Source: a virus
IMG/VR virus record: IMGVR_UViG_3300009093_000034
Span: 30,632 to 94,631 of that record
Strand: one strand, 5' to 3'
DNA: 64,000 nt
Positions 23,782 to 57,587 of the stretch are shown in pieces; within the stretch, counting starts at the first letter, position 1; each line of letters begins with the position of its first letter. The notes below the pieces were generated by a model. The model did not search any database and was not told the origin of the DNA. It saw only the letters and a program-made list of their open reading frames with translations. Both the position numbers and the translations under genes were made by a program.

Positions 23782-24044
23782 GTGGTCCAGCTCCAAAGCA
23801 TGGACAACCTACCCACCATGAAGCTGTTCATCACGTTTATCTTACTGTAGAACAGATGGAGAAGATGACAACTCAACGTCTTCTAGCTTACTTCAAGAAA
23901 CACTTGATGCATGATCCATTCTATCCTTCCAGTGAAAAAGAAAAACATGACGAGTGGGAGATGGTTAGAGCTAAAGCTCAAAGTATACTATCAAGTAGAG
24001 AACATGTTCCTTCTAAGAGGGAACTCCAAAAGAGAAAGAAATGA
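23778..24044 (+). CDS. hypothetical protein
   Basis: 88 aa. Confidence 0.4.
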   Translation: MSGPAPKHGQPTHHEAVHHVYLTVEQMEKMTTQRLLAYFKKHLMHDPFYPSSEKEKHDEWEMVRAKAQSILSSREHVPSKRELQKRKK

Positions 24045-24463
24045 CACGATACGTTTTAGGTTTTCTTTTTGATGACGAAAAGAACACGGTCGTCTTGATC
24101 AAGAAAAACAAGCCTGTTTGGCAAAAAGGTCTCTTGAACGGTGTTGGTGGGAAGATCGAAGAAGGTGAACTTCCTATAGTCGCTATGGTAAGAGAGTTTG
24201 AAGAGGAAACGTCTGTGAAAACAGACAACCTTGATTGGAAGCACTTTGCTGGTGTTGAAGGCGAAGGTTACTCCATCGCTTGTTTCTACACCATCAGTTC
24301 TGACTACATGAAAAACGTCAAGACCATGGAAGAAGAAGTGATCGAGATTCGTAGGATTCGAGATCTTCAAGATCTTCCTATAGTCTCCAATCTTCTTTGG
24401 TTGGTTCACCTTGCAAAAGATGAAAACAATGGTAACCATCCTACTGTTCAAGTAAAGTACTAA
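24041..24463 (+). CDS. Nudix hydrolase
   Basis: GGKIEEGELPIVAMVREFEEETSV fits the Nudix box Gx5Ex7REUxEExGU almost perfectly. Confidence 0.65.
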   Translation: MTRYVLGFLFDDEKNTVVLIKKNKPVWQKGLLNGVGGKIEEGELPIVAMVREFEEETSVKTDNLDWKHFAGVEGEGYSIACFYTISSDYMKNVKTMEEEVIEIRRIRDLQDLPIVSNLLWLVHLAKDENNGNHPTVQVKY

Positions 24464-25138: not shown

Positions 25139-25591
25139 ATGAGTTATCTCACTGCTACTACTCAGGACATTCAGGACGTCGCTAAGACCCTGATTTATGC
25201 CACTGACAAGACCACGTCCCGCGACATTCTGGAGAAGATGCGCGCCGACAATTACTGGATCAACCAGACCGAGGTCGCTGCTGCGCTTCGTGATCTTCTG
25301 GCCACGGATCCTTCCTACGTTCGGACCTTTCAGCCCGATGCCTCGGTTCCTACCGGTGGCTACTTCATCTACGGCCTTGCGAGCGTGATCAAGACCACGG
25401 CCTCTGCCCCTGTCTACCCTGCGAAGGTGAAGAAGGTTCAGACTGTTGGTGACTACGAAGCTCGTGACAAGAACGATCCCAACTGGACCCTCGTTCGTTA
25501 CGACAACGTCACCGAGAACCAGGCCAAGCATCTCTTCTCCGAAGAGTACGGCGTCGCCTACACTGACGTTCGCGTCAAGAAGGCTGTCTAA
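25139..25591 (+). CDS. hypothetical protein (GC-rich island)
   Basis: 150 aa with a strong RBS AGAGGAGG. Its GC-rich codon usage differs from the phage backbone. Confidence 0.5.
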   Translation: MSYLTATTQDIQDVAKTLIYATDKTTSRDILEKMRADNYWINQTEVAAALRDLLATDPSYVRTFQPDASVPTGGYFIYGLASVIKTTASAPVYPAKVKKVQTVGDYEARDKNDPNWTLVRYDNVTENQAKHLFSEEYGVAYTDVRVKKAV

Positions 25592-25849: not shown

Positions 25850-27061
25850 ATGGCCCGTATTGAAAAGCTGATCATGGTGACCGGTGAAGAGAATCACAAC
25901 AAGGTCTATGAGCTGATCGACAACGAGAACGGTACTTGTACCGCCAAGTGGGGTCGGGTTGGCGCTGCTCTTCAGGAGTGCAACTACCCCATCAGCGAGT
26001 TTGAAAAGAAGCTCAAGGAAAAGGTCAAGAAGGGCTATCGCGTGATCACCGATCTTCTGTCTGTCGAGAAAAGTGATGGTAAGACCACCACTACGGACGA
26101 CGAAGAGGTAAAGATCCAGAACATGTCCCGTGAGGCCATGGAGTTGATCAACTTCCTCCAGAGTTGTGCTAAGGGCATCGTCAAGCAGAACTACACCGTC
26201 AAAGTTGCCGACGTTACTCAGAAGCAGATCGACGCTGCTCAGGCCATCCTGGACGGACTGGTTGCTCTGTCCAACCAGAACTGGTCTCGTGAAGAGGCCA
26301 ACAAGATCCTTTTGGATCTTTACAACACCATCCCCCGGAAGATGAGCAACACCAAGAACTTCCTCATCCAGATCGACAACATCACGAAGAAGCGCCTTCA
26401 GGAGTTGATCTCCAGTGAAGCCGATCTTCTTGACGTTATGCGCGGTCAGGTTCAGACCACGAACGTTGCTCCCAAGTCTTCCACTGGCGAAGTCAAGTTG
26501 GATATTGAGATTCGTCTCGCTACTCCCGATGAGATCGATGAGATCTCCAAGAAGACTGACTTTGATGTTCGTAGTGCTGCAAGGATCTATCGGGTGGAGA
26601 ACACCAAGACCAAGAATCGCTACGAAAGTATCAACAAGCAGAATGAACAGCTTCTCTACCACGGTTCTCGCAGCCAGAACTGGTGGTCGATCATCAACGG
26701 CGGTTTGAAGATTCGTCCGACCAACGCCGTTCACACTGGCTCGATGTTCTCCGATGGTATCTACGCTGCTGACAAAGCTCAGAAGTCTCTCGGTTACACC
26801 GACGGTGGTTATTGGACTGGTAGCAGTGGTTCCTCGAAGAGGTTCCTCGGCATCTACAGTTTCAACCTCGGTCGTCAGTGGGATCTGTTCGCTGGTGGTC
26901 AGCGTCATGCCAGCTGGATGATGCAGCTCAACCTGAAGAAGATCAACGACAAGGGTTTTGACTCTCTGTTCGCTAAGGGTGGAGCAGATCTTCGCAACAA
27001 TGAGATGATCGTGTTCGAAGAGGCTCGCTGCACCATCAAGTATCTGATCGAGATGCGTTAA
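25850..27061 (+). CDS. PARP-like ADP-ribosyltransferase (WGR domain + helical domain + ART catalytic domain)
   Basis: The N-terminal WGRVG is a WGR motif. The C-terminal LYHGSRSQNWWSIINGG, GIYAADKAQKS and NEMIVFEEARCTIKYLIE blocks supply the H-Y-E triad of PARP catalytic domains. Confidence 0.75.
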   Translation: MARIEKLIMVTGEENHNKVYELIDNENGTCTAKWGRVGAALQECNYPISEFEKKLKEKVKKGYRVITDLLSVEKSDGKTTTTDDEEVKIQNMSREAMELINFLQSCAKGIVKQNYTVKVADVTQKQIDAAQAILDGLVALSNQNWSREEANKILLDLYNTIPRKMSNTKNFLIQIDNITKKRLQELISSEADLLDVMRGQVQTTNVAPKSSTGEVKLDIEIRLATPDEIDEISKKTDFDVRSAARIYRVENTKTKNRYESINKQNEQLLYHGSRSQNWWSIINGGLKIRPTNAVHTGSMFSDGIYAADKAQKSLGYTDGGYWTGSSGSSKRFLGIYSFNLGRQWDLFAGGQRHASWMMQLNLKKINDKGFDSLFAKGGADLRNNEMIVFEEARCTIKYLIEMR

Positions 27062-46142: not shown

Positions 46143-46574
46143 ATGGTTACAAGAAAAATTTGGCGTTTTGAAAACGAAAAAGGTGAAGGTCCTTATAACG
46201 GACACCCTAGTCCAAAATTTCTCTTTAAGTCTACTCATGACGGAGAGTCTAAGAAACATCCTCATCCCAAGTATGACTTTAAGAACTCTAAGATCATTAG
46301 ATTCTTAAACAACATGAACACTAAAGATCACTTTAGATGTGGATTTTCTACAAAGAAACAGGCATTTGAGTGGTTTACTGAACGAGAAAGAAAGATCTTG
46401 AAAAATAATGGCTACAATTTAGTCCGTAAAAATGCAGATAGAATCTTTAAAGGAAACAAACAAGTTATCTATATTCGTGAAGGTCATTTAGAAGAACTTG
46501 TTAAAGTTTTTCGTTTTGATCATTCTGTTCCAAAAACATTAACATCAATATATTCAATCAGGAGCTCAACATGA
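46143..46574 (+). CDS. hypothetical basic protein
   Basis: ATG at 46143 just after the upstream stop, in frame with the longer tracked ORF. Confidence 0.4.
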   Translation: MVTRKIWRFENEKGEGPYNGHPSPKFLFKSTHDGESKKHPHPKYDFKNSKIIRFLNNMNTKDHFRCGFSTKKQAFEWFTERERKILKNNGYNLVRKNADRIFKGNKQVIYIREGHLEELVKVFRFDHSVPKTLTSIYSIRSST

Positions 46575-47122
46575 TGCTACAGACCATTGAAGGAAACCTA
46601 ATCACTCTCGCCCTTGAAGGCAAGTTCGACATGATCGCTCATGGTTGTAACTGCTTCCATACCATGGGAGGAGGGATCGCCAAGTCTATTTCTGAGACTT
46701 TTCCTGAAGCTCTTCAAGCCGACAGGGTCTTTGGAGAAAGAGGAAACGTTTGGAAGCTTGGTCAGGCTTCCAAGGCTACGATCTTTCGTGGAGACACTCA
46801 GTTTGTTGTGGTGAACCTCTATACTCAGTTTGAGCCTGGAGCCAACTTTGAATACTTGGCCTTGATCAACTCTTTAGAGCATCTCAAGAAATACTTGGAT
46901 ATTCATCTCTACGATCGAGTGTCCGATAAACCTTACCGTCTTGGTTTTCCCAAGATCGGAGCTGGTATTGGTGGTGGAGATTGGGACCAGATCTACCAGA
47001 TCATTGACCAGTCTCTTGACGAGAAGTATCGTGAGGAACAGGGAGTCGAAATCACGGTTGTCGAGTTCATTCCTCCTAATCCTCTTCAGGAGATCGTTGT
47101 TCGTTCTCTTCAGAAGAAGTAA
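46571..47122 (+). CDS. macrodomain protein (Poa1-like ADP-ribose processing)
   Basis: MIAHGCNCFHTMGGGIAKSI matches the Poa1/macro signature iaHqcNc.g.MGaGIA. Confidence 0.6.
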   Translation: MMLQTIEGNLITLALEGKFDMIAHGCNCFHTMGGGIAKSISETFPEALQADRVFGERGNVWKLGQASKATIFRGDTQFVVVNLYTQFEPGANFEYLALINSLEHLKKYLDIHLYDRVSDKPYRLGFPKIGAGIGGGDWDQIYQIIDQSLDEKYREEQGVEITVVEFIPPNPLQEIVVRSLQKK

Positions 47123-47286
47123 GCCATGGAAACAATAGAAGAACAGATTGAAAATATGCTCATCATGGCCTCGGCTATGAGAGTTTCCAATCTTCCTATC
47201 TCAATCAAGATTGCAGCACTCGAAGTTGAAGTAGCCCTTAGAAAATTAGGGCTAGAGATTCTCAAAGCAAAGGTAGAAGAACCTGT

Positions 47287-47592
47287 ATGAAAAAGATCAT
47301 TACTCTTTTGATCCTCTTGGTAGGACTCACTCTCTCCGTTGGAGCTGAAAAGGCTGATATCAGTGGAACTGTGTCTAGACCTGGATATAGTTCTTACGAC
47401 TATCATCTAGATATTACTCAGGTTCCTCAGGCTCCTGCTGAGTACAAGCTCGTAGAAGCCAAGGATGCTGCTGAGCTCACTCATTTGATCACCGAGATGG
47501 TGAAGATCGGTTGGGTTCCTCTTGGTCAGGCGTTTATGAGCAACACTGGAAACCACTTTTACCAGACCATGGTGAAGTACGGAAGGTACTAA
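47287..47592 (+). CDS. secreted protein
   Basis: Signal peptide MKKIITLLILLVGLTLSVGA. Confidence 0.4.
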   Translation: MKKIITLLILLVGLTLSVGAEKADISGTVSRPGYSSYDYHLDITQVPQAPAEYKLVEAKDAAELTHLITEMVKIGWVPLGQAFMSNTGNHFYQTMVKYGRY

Positions 47593-47593
47593 C

Positions 47594-47887
47594 ATGCCCC
47601 CAGAATTCGATTCAATCAAAAGGTACTCCGAGATCGAAGATGGTATCGTAGATAGAATGGCCGTCTCAGCTTTTGGAGAAGCCACAACTCGAATGGAGAA
47701 AGATGGAGACGATGCCTCAGAGTGGCTCGCTCTTGATCTTTCAGATTCTCTACTCTATCTTCTCAAGTCTGACTCGATCCTCAAGAAACTTAAGAAGGCT
47801 CTCGGGACTCCTTTCAATGAAGAGCTTTATCTTGATCAGTTAGAAGCCATCAGAGACCAGGTGAGACAATTTTACGAGATCATGTAA
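47594..47887 (+). CDS. hypothetical acidic protein
   Basis: 97 aa. Confidence 0.4.
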   Translation: MPPEFDSIKRYSEIEDGIVDRMAVSAFGEATTRMEKDGDDASEWLALDLSDSLLYLLKSDSILKKLKKALGTPFNEELYLDQLEAIRDQVRQFYEIM

Positions 47888-48135
47888 TGTCCACCGAAAA
47901 AGAGTTCTCCGACATCATCAAGAAGACTCAAGAAGACGAAGCGACTTACCAATTTTTGAAGTCAAGAAATAAGGCTCAAAGGATCTACGTTTGGAACTGG
48001 ATCTATCGAGGTTTTTGTTTTCTTCCACTTCAAGCTGTTGCTCCTTTCATGTTTTGGTTTGTCTTTTTATCAAATCATGGAATGTTTCAAAACCCTGAAG
48101 ACATAAATTGGTTCGGGCCGTTCTCATGCTCTTGA
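47887..48135 (+). CDS. hypothetical protein
   Basis: 82 aa with a hydrophobic C-terminal half. Confidence 0.3.
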   Translation: MSTEKEFSDIIKKTQEDEATYQFLKSRNKAQRIYVWNWIYRGFCFLPLQAVAPFMFWFVFLSNHGMFQNPEDINWFGPFSCS

Positions 48136-48647
48136 TGTTAGGTGTTTTAGCTTTCTTTGTCGGATGGATGTGTATCGATGGCCTTCGTAAGATCATGATG
48201 GACTCTTTCTTGGAAAGATTCGATGACGTTGATGACGATGATGATGTCGAGGATGCAGATTTTGTTTGGCCAGACTATAAAGCTCCTGATAGAAAAGTTT
48301 CTTTCTTGGGAAAACAGTTCTCAGCTACAAATGCCATGCTTTGGTTGACAGCTAGACAAGAAAGAATTCCAGCTGAAAAACGTCAAAGACAGATTGAACG
48401 AGATGTCAAGAGAAACCAAAGAAATGCAGAGCTCATGCGAAAGCAGGAGTTGTTGAGTGCTAAACAAAAGGTCCGAAATGAAGAGAAAAGAATCTTCAAA
48501 ACCTCTAGAAAACGAAAAGCTGTTCTTGAGTGGATCAAAGAAGTCGGTGCTATCAACGATCCTGAGATCTACAAGAAAGTTATCAATGATCTAAAGATCG
48601 CTTTGAACGAAGGAAAAGAAAATGTGGGTCAAACAAGTCAGTCCTGA
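48108..48647 (+). CDS. membrane-anchored basic protein
   Basis: N-terminal TM followed by a Lys/Arg/Glu-rich segment. Confidence 0.4.
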   Translation: MVRAVLMLLMLGVLAFFVGWMCIDGLRKIMMDSFLERFDDVDDDDDVEDADFVWPDYKAPDRKVSFLGKQFSATNAMLWLTARQERIPAEKRQRQIERDVKRNQRNAELMRKQELLSAKQKVRNEEKRIFKTSRKRKAVLEWIKEVGAINDPEIYKKVINDLKIALNEGKENVGQTSQS

Positions 48648-48834
48648 TCCGAAACTAGTGTTGTATCACGGAATCTGTGATTACTGCGGTGATCCTAACG
48701 CTCAGGTCTATCGAGCACATGTTTCTGCTGGAGGGCCTTTAAGGTACGACTCATCTAACCACGATGATATCAAAAGATGCCTTCATTATCTCAAGAAAAG
48801 AGTAGAGTCTTTAGAGAAAAATCAAAAAGACTAA
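48622..48834 (+). CDS. hypothetical Cys-containing protein
   Basis: 70 aa with CDYCGD. Confidence 0.35.
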   Translation: MWVKQVSPDPKLVLYHGICDYCGDPNAQVYRAHVSAGGPLRYDSSNHDDIKRCLHYLKKRVESLEKNQKD

Positions 48835-48840
48835 TTCCTT

Positions 48841-49536
48841 ATGCACCAAAATCTTAGCTATCTCAAATGGTGGTTCAAGTACCGTCCGAGCGTCTTCTGG
48901 TTTAGCATCAGGGACGCTTTCAAGTATCCAAAACATACCATAAGAAATCTTATCACCTTCTTCTCAAACGATGGAGTCCGTCACTCAGATTCTTGGAGTC
49001 CATACTCTGCTCTGTCTGAGAAATTCTTGAGGATGACCAAGACTTTTAGACAAAAAGTTCATGGGTACCCTGGAATCGAAGGTGACTCAAACTGTGATAC
49101 TTACGAGCACTGGCAAGACACCATCAAGAAGATCAGACTTGCACACTTTTGGATTTGGTGGCAGGACAACGATCCATCTTGGATGATCGAGTCTTCTGAA
49201 GATCGTAAGAATGTCTATCTCTGGTTAAAGAAAAAGTACCCTTTTGCTGCAGAGTTCATAACTCCAAGGTTCTTGAAAAGATGGCACACCGATGTGCATC
49301 TTGAGTGGAACTTGGAGATCGATTGGAACGAGATAGAAGATCACACGGTTGAAGGCACTTATTATCACTCTGATTTTAAGTTTATCAACAAGAAAACTGG
49401 TGAGATCTTTCCTTGCGTCAATGCTCTAGATGAACCTGATGGTTGGGGAAACAACGAACTTCGTCAAGAGATGGAGAAAAAGTACTTAGAAGGGAGTGAT
49501 CTCTTTCATAAGTACTACAGGAACCTTTGGGACTAA
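48841..49536 (+). CDS. hypothetical Trp-rich protein
   Basis: 231 aa. Confidence 0.45.
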   Translation: MHQNLSYLKWWFKYRPSVFWFSIRDAFKYPKHTIRNLITFFSNDGVRHSDSWSPYSALSEKFLRMTKTFRQKVHGYPGIEGDSNCDTYEHWQDTIKKIRLAHFWIWWQDNDPSWMIESSEDRKNVYLWLKKKYPFAAEFITPRFLKRWHTDVHLEWNLEIDWNEIEDHTVEGTYYHSDFKFINKKTGEIFPCVNALDEPDGWGNNELRQEMEKKYLEGSDLFHKYYRNLWD

Positions 49537-49542
49537 CTTTCA

Positions 49543-50130
49543 ATGGGAAAGACTGCAGTTTTTACATTTGCAAGAATGAATCCTCCAACTTTAGGTCATG
49601 AACTATTGCTCTCAGAACTTGTCATTCAAGCCTTAGAAAAGAAAGCTGATCCATTTCTTTTCCTTTCCCACACAGAAGACTCTAAGAAAAACCCTATTCC
49701 TTACGGGAACAAAGTTAAATTTGTCAAAGAACTTTTCAAAGATAAGTTCCCTGAACTCCATATCTACTCAGGAGAGAGCTGCAAGAACCCTAGAGAAGCT
49801 CTCTCTTTCCTTTACAATCTTGACGATTACTCTGAGGTGATTGGAGTCTTTGGTAGTGATCGAGTGGATGACATGTACGATCTTATGACCAGAGGAAACG
49901 GAAAAGAAGGTCTTTCATCTGGTTTCTATCTCTTCAACAAACTCTCTGTCACATCAGCCGGAGAACGAGACCCAGAACAAGATGGAGTTGAAGGTGTTTC
50001 TGCCACTAAACTCCGTGAGTACGCTCTAGAAAATGACTTTGAGTCCTTCAAAAAAGGTCTTCCAGAGGCTGACGAAACACTAATTAATAACATCTTTCTA
50101 ACGACCCAACGAGGACTTGAACGTGCCTGA
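49543..50130 (+). CDS. nicotinamide/nicotinate mononucleotide adenylyltransferase-like (HxGH nucleotidyltransferase)
   Basis: FARMNPPTLGHELL is the (T/H)xGH motif. VSATKLRE is the ISSTxIR motif of the NadD/NadM family. Confidence 0.6.
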   Translation: MGKTAVFTFARMNPPTLGHELLLSELVIQALEKKADPFLFLSHTEDSKKNPIPYGNKVKFVKELFKDKFPELHIYSGESCKNPREALSFLYNLDDYSEVIGVFGSDRVDDMYDLMTRGNGKEGLSSGFYLFNKLSVTSAGERDPEQDGVEGVSATKLREYALENDFESFKKGLPEADETLINNIFLTTQRGLERA

Positions 50131-52261
50131 AAAAACTATCCCTAACTCTGGAGCGGTCTCTTCTGATCGAATCCTTCAAAAGAACGTTTTTCCAACCATT
50201 GAGGTCTTTGTTGATAAGATCTTGAACTTGGTTCCTCACCAGAAGTATGGCGTGATCGGATCTACTGGAAAGAAACAAGACAACGGAGATATCGACCTAG
50301 GCCTTGAAACCTCTTTGACCTTAGATCAAGTGAGTGCTGTCCTAAACGACCTTGACGTTGATCATGTGGTTCAAAAAGGACTTAATGAGATCAATTGTCG
50401 ATTTCCTCAGTATGAGAACGGAGCTCACAAGTTAGATCTTTGGGTTCAGGTTGACTTGATGTTAGGAAATTTGGATTGGTTGGAGTTCGTGTTCTACGTG
50501 GACAAGGACACCAAGTACAAGCCGATGGCTAGAACTGGTCTTCTCTTCGGTCTACTCAAAGTAGCTGCTATGCCTATCGCTGGCCAAAACACACCTCAAG
50601 GTCCATCTAATGAAGTTTGGTCTTTTGCTCCTACTCGTGGTATGTTCACCAAGGTTGGAACCAAAAGAACTAACAGAAAAGGTGAAGAAGTCATCGATTG
50701 GACCAACTCGTCTTCTTATACCCCTGACCCAAACAAGTTTTGTGAGATCGCCTTTGAACAAGCTAGGCGCGCTGTAAAACCCTCTGAACTAGAAACTTCC
50801 TTTGAAGGTTGTTGGAAGGTTATGACAGACGTTTTCTCTAACAACCCTACTCTCTTAGGTCAACTCGCAGAGTATGTCATGAACTTCTGTAAGGACAAGG
50901 GAGTCTCACCGGTTCCTGAGCTTGAACAATGGACCAAAGCCTTGAAGGTTCAAGAGTCTATTGAACAACTTCTTGAATACGTTGAGTACATCAAGGGTCA
51001 CAAAAACTCCTCTGGAGAATCTGCTCCTTGGGTCATCAAACAACATAACACTGGAAAGATCCTCTCAAGCCACTCCTCTGAGGCCAAGGCTAAGGCTCAC
51101 CTCGGTCAGATGGAGATGCACAAACATCTGGAAGAAAAGTATGACACTAGGGATGACGGAAGTGAGCTCGCTAGTTTCCTTCTTGATCCTCGTGTCATCC
51201 AAGAACTTCGTAGATCATCAGAGCCTTTGAGAACTTTGGTGGTCGACGGACTCAGACAATTTGGTATCTCTGTCAAAGACTCTACTAAGAGTGAAGACTC
51301 CGACTTTATCTACCCAGACGTAGGTATTGAAGGCGGAGTGATGTATCCTAATGGAAAACTTCAGATCATCATTGACGTTGATCAAGTTGAGGAAATTCTT
51401 GCTGGTCTTAGGTTTGATGGTCTAGATCAATACAAGAAGTTCATTAGGTATCTAGCAGCTGTCTACGCTCATGAAAAGATTCATGATGCCCAGTACAAAG
51501 CATCAGGTGAAGAATATACTTTGAGAAAAAAAGATCTCTTATCTCTCACAGGAGACGACAGAGATTATCTCTCGAACGAAAGAGAGATTCATGCTCAGGC
51601 TTCCAGTGCAGTAGATGAATGGATAGCCGAAGGTTATGCTCCAGAACAAATTAGAAAATGGTTAACTAACACAGTTGAGTTGATCCGTCATGCTAAAGAT
51701 GCTCCTGCTATTATGGACTATTGGAAAGGTTTTGGCATCTACAAGAGTGAAGAAAGTCAAAAGGTCTGGCGACAGTTCTTGAAGCAGGTTTATGACTTTA
51801 CTCAACAAAAGATGATCAAAGAATCCACAGATAGTGACAAGATCGCAATGTTCATCAACAGGCCTTCTGAAGCCATCAAAGAAGGAAAGTTCTATTGGCA
51901 AGATCCTACCAACGATGAGATCCACGGTGGAAAGATCATTAGTGTTGATGCTCCTGACTTCATCGTTGAGGTCGAGTGTGAACTCTGTGGAAAGACTTGT
52001 TACACAGACAACTTCAGAGACTCACAAGATAAAGAATGGTGGATCAAAGCTCAAAAGCTCTTAGAAGGTGTTTCTCAAAGTGCTATTCAAGCTTATCAAC
52101 AGCAAAAGAACTCCCCTGAGAAACATAAGGTAGATATTGTCTCAACTGAGATGGCAGCTCCAGAGAACGGGGTGAACTTCTTGGCTGGAGGTGGAAGACC
52201 TCAAGATCTTCAACCTGCCACGGTTAGGTATGACTCAAATGGAAAACTCAGAAACGAATGA
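50117..52261 (+). CDS. Pol-beta-superfamily nucleotidyltransferase domain protein with C-terminal HExxH region (714 aa)
   Basis: YGVIGSTGKKQDNGDIDLGLE is the hG[GS]...D.D NTase signature. YAHEKIHDAQ is an HExxH motif. The start is non-ATG (TTG at 50117 or GTG at 50123). Confidence 0.5.
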   Translation: MNVPEKTIPNSGAVSSDRILQKNVFPTIEVFVDKILNLVPHQKYGVIGSTGKKQDNGDIDLGLETSLTLDQVSAVLNDLDVDHVVQKGLNEINCRFPQYENGAHKLDLWVQVDLMLGNLDWLEFVFYVDKDTKYKPMARTGLLFGLLKVAAMPIAGQNTPQGPSNEVWSFAPTRGMFTKVGTKRTNRKGEEVIDWTNSSSYTPDPNKFCEIAFEQARRAVKPSELETSFEGCWKVMTDVFSNNPTLLGQLAEYVMNFCKDKGVSPVPELEQWTKALKVQESIEQLLEYVEYIKGHKNSSGESAPWVIKQHNTGKILSSHSSEAKAKAHLGQMEMHKHLEEKYDTRDDGSELASFLLDPRVIQELRRSSEPLRTLVVDGLRQFGISVKDSTKSEDSDFIYPDVGIEGGVMYPNGKLQIIIDVDQVEEILAGLRFDGLDQYKKFIRYLAAVYAHEKIHDAQYKASGEEYTLRKKDLLSLTGDDRDYLSNEREIHAQASSAVDEWIAEGYAPEQIRKWLTNTVELIRHAKDAPAIMDYWKGFGIYKSEESQKVWRQFLKQVYDFTQQKMIKESTDSDKIAMFINRPSEAIKEGKFYWQDPTNDEIHGGKIISVDAPDFIVEVECELCGKTCYTDNFRDSQDKEWWIKAQKLLEGVSQSAIQAYQQQKNSPEKHKVDIVSTEMAAPENGVNFLAGGGRPQDLQPATVRYDSNGKLRNE

Positions 52262-52800
52262 GCATGTCCAACTGGTTAAGAGGAAATGCTTTTCAAGAGA
52301 AAGACGAATACTATACGCCTAAAATTTTAGTAGATATAATTGTTCCTTATGTGCCTGCTGGATCAACAGTATGGCTCCCATTTGATACTGAAGACTCCGA
52401 GTTTGTTCATGCGTTTAAGCACACACATGAGGTAGTCTTCTCTCACATCTGGGAAGGAAAAGACTTCTTTGATTTCATTCCAGACAAAGTTGACTACGTC
52501 ATCAGTAATCCTCCCTATTCTAGAAAGATGGATGTTTTGAAGAGACTCTATGACTTAGATTTTCCTTTCGCTATGGTTCTCCCTCTTCCTTGTTTAAACT
52601 ATCAAGAGGTTGGAAAGTTCTTTTTAGATCGAGAACTTCAGCTCTTGATCCCAGACAAGAAAGTCTCTTTTAATGGAAACACAGCGTCTTTCAACAGTAC
52701 CTTCTTTTGTCACAAACTTCTACCTTCCAACTTGATGTTTGCTCACTTAGAACACAACAATACTGGGAAGAACTTTGTTGGAAGTAGAATGATCTCTTAA
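52258..52800 (+). CDS. putative DNA N6-adenine methyltransferase (small phage Dam-like)
   Basis: YYTP and VISNPPYS are (D/N)PPY catalytic motifs. Confidence 0.5.
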   Translation: MSMSNWLRGNAFQEKDEYYTPKILVDIIVPYVPAGSTVWLPFDTEDSEFVHAFKHTHEVVFSHIWEGKDFFDFIPDKVDYVISNPPYSRKMDVLKRLYDLDFPFAMVLPLPCLNYQEVGKFFLDRELQLLIPDKKVSFNGNTASFNSTFFCHKLLPSNLMFAHLEHNNTGKNFVGSRMIS

Positions 52801-52831: not shown

Positions 52832-54043
52832 ATGCCAAACACAGACAAAAATCACTCCACTCACATTGAAGACTCTGTCCTACAAGGTCCGAAGAAGATC
52901 CAAATGGCGATCCTCTTCTTTGAAGGTCTTCTCAACAACTCGTCTAGTCTAACCAAGAGTCTCAAGATCGACGGAGCTCCCGTTGTCTTGGCAGGTTCCA
53001 ACGCTGTTGGGATCACCAGGCCTTTTGTTGCAGCCAAGTCCTTCTTGAACAACGGTAAGGTCGCGACCAACGAGGATGAGATCCAAGAGCTCTTTGGAGA
53101 TCGTCCTGGTCTTGCTTCCAAGATGAAGAAGCTTCTTGAGCTCCTTCCAGAACTTCAGATCCCTGAAGGAGAGATTTGGAGAGGAGACTTGCTCTTCTCT
53201 AAAGACACTCTTCAAAACGAAGGTGGAAACAACTACTTCCACCCTAACACTCTTGTTTATGCTCCAAACTCCCAATCTGAGATTGATGCTGTCAATCAAG
53301 CAGACATCGGAATCATCTGGCACACCTACTACACAGGGGAGACACTTACGTCTCTCACAGCTCATGCCGATCTCGATGTCTACCGATTGAAACCTTCTAC
53401 ATCTGTTTTTACTCTGAGTCCTCTCTTCAAACAAGAAGAGCTCTCCATTGAGGAAACCTTCTTGATCAAGAGTACATTGGCAACAGTCAAGGAAAGATTC
53501 AGAGGTCTGATGGCTGGTTCTGTTGGAGCTACGTACGCCGAAGTTCTTAAGAACAAGGTGTTTCTTGAACACCTCACAACCTACCTCAATCACTTGATCA
53601 GACAAGGAAAAGGAATCTACCAGTTCTCTCCTACGGATCTTGCTTACAGCTGGATCCCTCAACGATATGAGCAAAAGATCGAAGGTCTTAAGACTGAGAA
53701 GTTCAAGACCAAGTGGAAGAACGAACGAGACTCCTACATCGATGCTGCTAGGTTCATTGAACCTGTCCTTGGTCAGATGATCTCCTTGATGAAAGCCCTT
53801 GTTCACGTCAAGGCTTTGTTCATCCAAAACTTCAACTCTTTGAAAGATCTTCCTTTCATGACCTTCTACAAAAAGAAGATCGATGATCGGGCTGTGTTGG
53901 TCAAGACTGCTCATGAAGGCTTTGTCATCACGGACAAGAAAGGAAACTCTTTTAAGCTTGTTGACCGAGAAGAGTTCACGAAGATCAACTTTGGAGTTGA
54001 TACTGTTCGCGGATGGAAGGAAGAGTCGAAACAAGTCCAATGA
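52832..54043 (+). CDS. putative nucleotidyltransferase/ligase-like protein
   Basis: LKIDGAPV is a KxDG motif-I-like block. The C-terminal HEGFVITDKKGNSFKLVD resembles ligase motifs IV/V. The assignment is tentative because the motif spacing is unusually long. Confidence 0.4.
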   Translation: MPNTDKNHSTHIEDSVLQGPKKIQMAILFFEGLLNNSSSLTKSLKIDGAPVVLAGSNAVGITRPFVAAKSFLNNGKVATNEDEIQELFGDRPGLASKMKKLLELLPELQIPEGEIWRGDLLFSKDTLQNEGGNNYFHPNTLVYAPNSQSEIDAVNQADIGIIWHTYYTGETLTSLTAHADLDVYRLKPSTSVFTLSPLFKQEELSIEETFLIKSTLATVKERFRGLMAGSVGATYAEVLKNKVFLEHLTTYLNHLIRQGKGIYQFSPTDLAYSWIPQRYEQKIEGLKTEKFKTKWKNERDSYIDAARFIEPVLGQMISLMKALVHVKALFIQNFNSLKDLPFMTFYKKKIDDRAVLVKTAHEGFVITDKKGNSFKLVDREEFTKINFGVDTVRGWKEESKQVQ

Positions 54044-56489: not shown

Positions 56490-57587
56490 ATGCAGAACCT
56501 TCTCGTCCTCAAGTTCATTCAGGAACATCCCAACGATTGGGAGCAGATCCTCTCTGCTGAGCCTTACCACATGTCAGTCAAGCACTACGATGGTAAGGAA
56601 CTCATCAACCAGAACTTGGTGATGCTCTCCTACAACCAGATCTTCTCCGACTTCCACAACCCGATCGTTCGTGAGTGCCGAGGTATCATCATCGACAAGG
56701 TCACCATGAAGGCTGTCTGTGTTCCGTTCTTCAAGTTCGGAAACCAGGGAGAGAGCTATGCTGACAAGATCGATTGGTCCACAGCTCATGTTCTCCAGAA
56801 GATCGATGGTTCTCTGATCAAGCTCTATTTCTACAATGGAACCTGGCGAATCGCCACCAATGGAACCATCAACGCTCTCGAGTGTGATCTTCCTTCGGAC
56901 CTTGGTCCTTCGAAGACCTTCGGTGAGTTGTTCTTGAACAACATCCCTGTGGACAGCTTCCTCGACATCGCCGACAAAGACTACACTTACATGTTTGAGA
57001 TCTGCTCTCCTTGGAACCGGGTGGTAACTCCCTGGCAGACCACCGAGATCTTCTTCTTGGGCATGCGTCACAACGAGACCCTTCAGGAAACTCTTCCTGA
57101 TGACCGGTTCATGCCGATCCTTCCTCCGAAGATGTATCCTCTGACCTCTTTGGCTGAGGTCGAAGCTGCTTCCAAAGAGCTTCCCTTCCAGGATGAAGGT
57201 TATGTCGTCGTTGACGCTGACTTCAAGCGTGTCAAGATCAAGGGTCCGGCTTACGTCAAGATCCACCATCTCCGTTCTGAAGGGCCCTTCACCATGAAGC
57301 GTGCCTTCGAGTTGGTTCAGGCCAATGAAGTTGGTGAGTTTCTTTCGTACTATCCCGAGTATACTAACGTTGTAGAAGGTGTTCGTTCCAAATTGGACGT
57401 CATCAAGGAAGCTCTGAAGGAACAGGAAACTCTTGTTTTCTCCCAGAACTTCCTTAGCCGAAAGGACTACGCTCTCTTTGTCAAGGACTTCCAGTACAAG
57501 TCTTACTTCTTCTCGAAGTTGGATGGCAAGGTGTCTGGCATCGACGAGTACGTTTCTAAACTCAAGTTCGATCAGGTTCAACTGTGA
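56490..57587 (+). CDS. RNA ligase 1 (T4 RnlA-like)
   Basis: VLQKIDGSLIKLYF is nucleotidyltransferase motif I KxDG(S/T). Its 365-aa length is comparable to T4 Rnl1. Confidence 0.7.
   Translation: MQNLLVLKFIQEHPNDWEQILSAEPYHMSVKHYDGKELINQNLVMLSYNQIFSDFHNPIVRECRGIIIDKVTMKAVCVPFFKFGNQGESYADKIDWSTAHVLQKIDGSLIKLYFYNGTWRIATNGTINALECDLPSDLGPSKTFGELFLNNIPVDSFLDIADKDYTYMFEICSPWNRVVTPWQTTEIFFLGMRHNETLQETLPDDRFMPILPPKMYPLTSLAEVEAASKELPFQDEGYVVVDADFKRVKIKGPAYVKIHHLRSEGPFTMKRAFELVQANEVGEFLSYYPEYTNVVEGVRSKLDVIKEALKEQETLVFSQNFLSRKDYALFVKDFQYKSYFFSKLDGKVSGIDEYVSKLKFDQVQL

What the first reader, a model, noticed from the sequence alone, without database searches (positions are those of the whole stretch)
46571..50130. 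Distributed NAD/ADP-ribose toolkit: macrodomain, NMNAT-like and Nudix genes accompany the PARP-like gene
Besides the PARP-like writer, the window encodes a Poa1-like macrodomain (46571-47122, a possible ADP-ribose eraser). It also encodes an HxGH NMN/NaMN adenylyltransferase-like enzyme (49543-50130) and a Nudix hydrolase (24041-24463). Together these could form an ADP-ribosylation cycle plus NAD+ resynthesis, or a counter-defence against NAD-depleting host immunity. The combination has not been described as one module and deserves testing.
Basis: partly seen in the sequence, partly recalled or inferred. Interest (0 to 1): 0.65.

Follow-up and report, generated by a model that had tools for sequence, protein, structure and literature searches.

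The report
Four unlinked phage NAD/ADP-ribose-type genes
The macrodomain, PARP and Nudix genes are real members of known phage families, but they do not form one inherited module, and the supposed NAD-making enzyme instead always travels with an uncharacterised RNA-ligase-like gene.

Summary
The window is part of a 306-kb jumbo-phage contig. Three of the four genes pass curated profiles: Macro (46571-47122), NUDIX (24041-24463) and PARP (25850-27061, invariant H-Y-E triad). The "NMNAT-like" gene (49543-50130) is a HIGH-superfamily nucleotidyltransferase. Its motif is TLGH, not HxGH. Its fold is closest to NadD, but it matches no NMNAT/NadD family profile.

The genes are inherited separately. 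Homologues occur in about 2710 (macro), 558 (transferase), 16 (PARP) and 9 (Nudix) phage records.
- In 80 PARP loci, none has the transferase and one has a Nudix. However, 36 carry a different small macro gene about 10 nt upstream, and 30 carry a DNA ligase.
- The window's macro is the counterpart of T4 Tk.4 (AdfM, anti-DarTG2). It is also a relative of Adpp, the ADPR-1''-phosphate phosphatase that counters aRES.

A phage NAD/ADP-ribose network was already described (Iyer et al. 2021, 2022). Verdict: known kinds, no single module. A PARP-macro link is plausible; the NAD-resynthesis part is unsupported. The transferase-DUF6267 module is the new lead.

The parts
46571..47122 (+). Macrodomain protein (183 aa) of the Tk.4 (AdfM) / Adpp / Poa1p-like family
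   Evidence: Pfam Macro 26.6 bits, above the gathering score of 22; phrog_335 E 2.8e-53. PDB: Poa1p E 4.7e-5, DarG E 6e-5. NCBIfam and PADLOC DarG models: E 8e-6 and 2.6e-7. 39-41% identical to Tk.4 of T4-like phages, E 2e-24, with 2710 phage records matched. 33-36% identical to NARP1-operon macros. Both ADP-ribose-binding loops are present (MGGGIA; IGAGIGGGDW).
46143..46574 (+). T4 Y00F-like protein (143 aa); its stop overlaps the macro start (ATGA)
   Evidence: PF26820 Phage_T4_Y00F on the called gene; phrog_1106 E 1e-16.
49543..50130 (+). HIGH-superfamily nucleotidyltransferase (195 aa), the 'cyanophage cytidylyltransferase' family; substrate unknown
   Evidence: phrog_3041 E 5.7e-44. Invariant GRMNPPTxGH, GSDR and SATKxR motifs. 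AF2 pLDDT 93.8; Foldseek top hit NadD, E 4e-6. No NMNAT profile hit. DUF6267 lies on the same strand in 68 of 80 loci.
50117..52261 (+). 714-aa multidomain protein; the N-terminal ~270 aa carry a Pol-beta-type nucleotidyltransferase signature
   Evidence: G48, S49, D58, D60 and D113 are invariant in 62 homologues. No Pfam or PDB sequence hit. The N-domain (38% identity, E 3.5e-53) is fused to DUF6267 in a 1097-aa protein of a related phage.
52258..52800 (+). Short methyltransferase-like protein (180 aa, NPPY motif)
   Evidence: phrog_799 'DNA methyltransferase' E 8.4e-25; weak Pfam N6_Mtase and Eco57I hits at the NPPY site.
52832..54043 (+). DUF6267 protein (403 aa) with a ligase-type adenylyltransferase fold and a long helical insert
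56490..57587 (+). T4 Rnl1-type RNA ligase
   Evidence: Pfam RNA_lig_T4_1 E 5.7e-11; phrog_562 E 1.1e-50.
24041..24463 (+). Small Nudix hydrolase (140 aa); substrate not assignable, MutT-like in size and weak matches
   Evidence: Pfam NUDIX E 6.7e-11. PDB: ADP-ribose pyrophosphatase and MutT both at about 1e-5, through the Nudix box only. NCBIfam best weak hits are MutT-type. Only 9 phage records carry a homologue.
25139..25591 (+). 150-aa protein of unknown function, a recurrent PARP neighbour
   Evidence: Its family HMM hits 14 of 80 PARP loci, L166 and L164, and the Cellulophaga gene between PARP and the DNA ligase (E 2.7e-10). It is not a macro (hhalign probability below 1%).
25850..27061 (+). 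PARP-like protein (403 aa): WGR, helical and catalytic regions with an H-Y-E triad
   Evidence: Pfam PARP E 4.5e-22; weak WGR E 0.0034. Aligns to the PARP1 WGR-HD-CAT region, E 5.5e-14. H271, Y305 and E385 are invariant. More than 2400 compact homologues in metagenomes; 16 phage records.

Best explanation
The four genes are separate accessory genes of a jumbo phage, not one module.

1. The macrodomain is the counterpart of T4 Tk.4 (AdfM) and a relative of Adpp. It most likely acts in counter-defence. It would remove ADP-ribose from phage DNA modified by DarT2-type host toxins, or dephosphorylate ADPR-1''-phosphate. This is inferred from homology; the activity was not tested here.
2. The 'NMNAT-like' enzyme is a HIGH-superfamily nucleotidyltransferase. 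Its conserved partner is DUF6267, an enzyme with an RNA-ligase-type adenylyltransferase fold. In this phage a Pol-beta-like nucleotidyltransferase and a small methyltransferase-like protein lie between them. It therefore most likely works in a nucleic-acid (probably RNA) end-processing and ligation module. It is less likely to work in NAD+ salvage. The linkage and folds are shown; the substrate and reaction are inferred.
3. The Nudix is a small MutT-like hydrolase of unknown substrate.
4. The PARP is a typical phage WGR-PARP with an intact H-Y-E triad. In other phages its recurrent neighbours are a different small macro gene, DNA ligases, RNA-repair enzymes and the 25139-25591 family. This points to ADP-ribosylation at nucleic-acid breaks or ends. 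The window's only macro may secondarily serve as its eraser.
For: Profile hits: Macro, NUDIX and PARP all score above Pfam gathering scores.

Macro family:
- 39-41% identical to Tk.4 of T4-like phages; 2710 phage records matched.
- Matches DarG models.
- In Vibrio phage Thalassa the homologue sits between the Adps-like and Namat-like genes.
- Tk.4 = AdfM protects T4 from DarTG2. Adpp is an ADPR-1''P phosphatase.

Transferase:
- No NMNAT, NadD, NadM or NadR profile match.
- DUF6267 is on the same strand in 68 of 80 IMG/VR loci and upstream in 67, with a median gap of about 500 nt.
- Fusions with DUF6267 exist in both orders.
- Its family HMM finds 0 hits among 1834 ORFs around 80 PARP genes. 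A macro HMM finds 0 hits among 1302 ORFs around 80 transferase genes.

DUF6267:
- Invariant KxDG, EG and K...R motifs.
- The N-domain of the 714-aa protein is fused to DUF6267 in a related phage and carries an invariant GS...DxD...D signature.

PARP neighbourhoods:
- An adjacent macro in 36 of 80 loci, a DNA ligase in 30, RNA ligases or RlaP in 9 each, a Nudix in 1.
- The closest PARP relatives have an ATP-dependent DNA ligase 1.3-1.6 kb downstream and no macro, Nudix or CTP_transf gene.

Genome-level counts: 2710, 558, 16 and 9 phage records. The PARP and Nudix sets share 2 records, and in both the two genes lie more than 100 kb apart. The complete Cellulophaga phi17:2_18 genome has PARP and a Tk.4-type macro only.
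Against: - Only 64 kb plus about 10 kb of a 306-kb genome could be read, so NadV, Namat or Adps could lie elsewhere.
- The locus tests cover ±10 kb. They show absence of local linkage, not absence of genome-level co-occurrence.
- The 80 transferase loci are dominated by T4-like marine phages, in which PARP is rare anyway.
- The transferase's best structural matches really are NadD and NMNAT enzymes, so NMN adenylylation is not excluded.
- Tk.4-type macros do co-occur with PARP in both isolate lineages examined: Cellulophaga at 17 kb and Klebsiella FBKp34 at 2.4 kb.
- The Nudix lies only 1.4 kb from PARP in this window, and 2 of the 9 Nudix-bearing phage records also carry PARP.
- No activity was measured for any of the proteins.
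Confidence: 0.6

Rival explanations
1. Writer-eraser pair only. The PARP (25850-27061) ADP-ribosylates proteins or nucleic-acid ends during infection. The window's single macrodomain (46571-47122) reverses or trims that modification. The transferase and the Nudix take no part.
For: 36 of 80 phage PARP loci carry a macro gene about 10 nt upstream on the same strand. The window has exactly one macro, and it is a distant relative of those macros (HMM E 2.1e-5). Tk.4-type macros are present in both PARP-carrying isolates examined: FBKp34 at 2.4 kb and Cellulophaga at 17 kb from PARP. DarG- and TARG1-like macros are known ADP-ribosyl hydrolases (established knowledge).
Against: The window's macro belongs to the Tk.4/Adpp subfamily (33-41% identity) and not to the PARP-adjacent subfamily (19-25%). 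That subfamily occurs in 2710 phage records against 16 with PARP, so at least 99% of its carriers lack PARP. Macro adjacency is confined to one PARP clade: 2 of 26 groups at 70% identity. The closest PARP relatives, XacN1 and RAS14 have no macro within 8-10 kb. In this window and 16 other loci the PARP neighbour is the 25139-25591 family instead.
Confidence: 0.2
2. One reading: one distributed NAD/ADP-ribose toolkit. PARP writes, the macro erases, the Nudix degrades free ADP-ribose, and the HIGH enzyme is an NMN/NaMN adenylyltransferase that rebuilds NAD+. This would also counter NAD-depleting host immunity.
For: All four domain types belong to the NAD+/ADP-ribose network described for jumbo phages (PMC7824862, PMC9503650). 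The transferase has TxGH and SxTxxR motifs and a NadD-like predicted fold. Relatives of the macro are part of the NARP1-AP NAD-reconstitution operon. The Nudix lies 1.4 kb from PARP.
Against: There is no NMNAT profile match. According to Iyer et al. 2022, known phage NMN adenylyltransferases are fused to a Nudix or kinase domain, and every NadM phage also has NadV. Here the enzyme is standalone, and no NadV, Adps, Namat, NadR or PnuC was detected among the ORFs scanned in the 64-kb window or in the Pfam marks of the 10-kb 3' flank. The transferase is bound to DUF6267 by adjacency and fusion, and it is never near PARP, a macro or a Nudix. The Nudix has no ADP-ribose-pyrophosphatase signature. 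The four phyletic distributions are unrelated.
Confidence: 0.1
3. RNA-repair reading of the macro. The macro removes the 1''-phosphate from ADPR-1''P produced by an NAD-dependent RNA 2'-phosphotransferase step, as Poa1p does in yeast tRNA splicing. It would act as part of the phage's scattered tRNA-repair set.
For: The best solved relative is Poa1p. The window carries Rnl1, a Thg1-like enzyme, HAD_SAK_2, HD proteins and Band_7. In Acinetobacter and Vibrio phages the macro homologue lies within a few genes of an RNA ligase. Iyer et al. propose this role for some phage macros.
Against: No KptA/Tpt1 gene and no 2H phosphoesterase were found in the window. The only PTS_2-RNA signal is a sub-threshold hit inside the PARP catalytic domain (E 0.0019). 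T4 Rnl1-type repair does not generate 2'-phosphates (established knowledge). The experimentally shown roles of the closest relatives are anti-DarTG2 and anti-aRES.
Confidence: 0.1

Closest known systems
T4 Tk.4 = AdfM (anti-DarT factor, macrodomain)
   Same: Standalone phage macrodomain of about 150-185 aa. 39-41% identical to Tk.4 of T4-like phages, E 2e-24. DarG-like by structure and profile. Encoded in an accessory-gene region of a large myovirus-type genome.
   Different: Activity against DarT2-modified DNA was not tested here. The DarG catalytic lysine region does not align to a lysine in this protein (my reading of the alignment). Unlike T4, this phage also carries a PARP.
Adpp, the ADPR-1''-phosphate phosphatase of the NARP1-AP pathway (Vibrio phage Gary; Osterman et al. 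2026 preprint), and yeast Poa1p
   Same: Same Poa1p-like macro subfamily. 33-36% identical to the macro that lies between the Adps-like and Namat-like genes in Vibrio phage Thalassa and Acinetobacter phage Aci01-1. Shares the AHxCNC...GxGIA and IGxGxxGGDW motifs.
   Different: No Adps or Namat (NARP1) genes are next to it or anywhere in the 64-kb window, so the operon context that defines Adpp is missing.
NadD / NMNAT and the phage NadM and NadR NMN adenylyltransferases (NARP2, NARP3)
   Same: HIGH-superfamily Rossmann-like fold. TxGH and SxTxxR motifs. NadD is the best Foldseek match: E 4e-6, TM 0.58-0.61.
   Different: Only 11-19% identity. No Pfam, NCBIfam or PDB-profile membership. Standalone, with no Nudix or kinase fusion. 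No NadV or PnuC was detected among the scanned ORFs. Its conserved partner is DUF6267, not a NAD-salvage gene.
MJ0951 / TmcAL family (HIGH_NTase1), tRNA-acting HIGH enzymes
   Same: Best sequence-profile match in the PDB: 3gmi, E 1.5e-4, over the GxSxTKxR...F..FK..LP segment. Weak Pfam HIGH_NTase1_ass hit. TmcAL also appears among the fold matches.
   Different: The match covers only about 45 residues. The protein is half the size and lacks the TmcAL C-terminal domain. No evidence for a tRNA substrate.
ATP-dependent RNA ligases (Naegleria Rnl5, T4 Rnl2, T. brucei REL1, Trl1), as the comparison for DUF6267
   Different: No sequence-profile hit to any ligase family. Foldseek finds nothing significant. 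A helical insert of about 130 residues (206-335) sits between motif I and the EG motif. An extra invariant N-terminal H8..H11-x-E13-D14 motif is present. Obligate association with a HIGH transferase.
Phage PARTs/PARPs and the jumbo-phage NAD+/ADP-ribose network (Iyer et al. 2021, 2022)
   Same: A compact WGR-helical-PARP protein with an H-Y-E triad. Phage homologues are annotated in Cellulophaga, Xanthomonas, Klebsiella and Stenotrophomonas phages. The co-presence of ART/PARP, Macro and Nudix in one large phage is the published pattern.
   Different: Those papers describe a network of independently distributed domains, not a fixed four-gene module. The passages I read did not mention the PARP + adjacent macro + DNA ligase arrangement or the 25139-25591 family.

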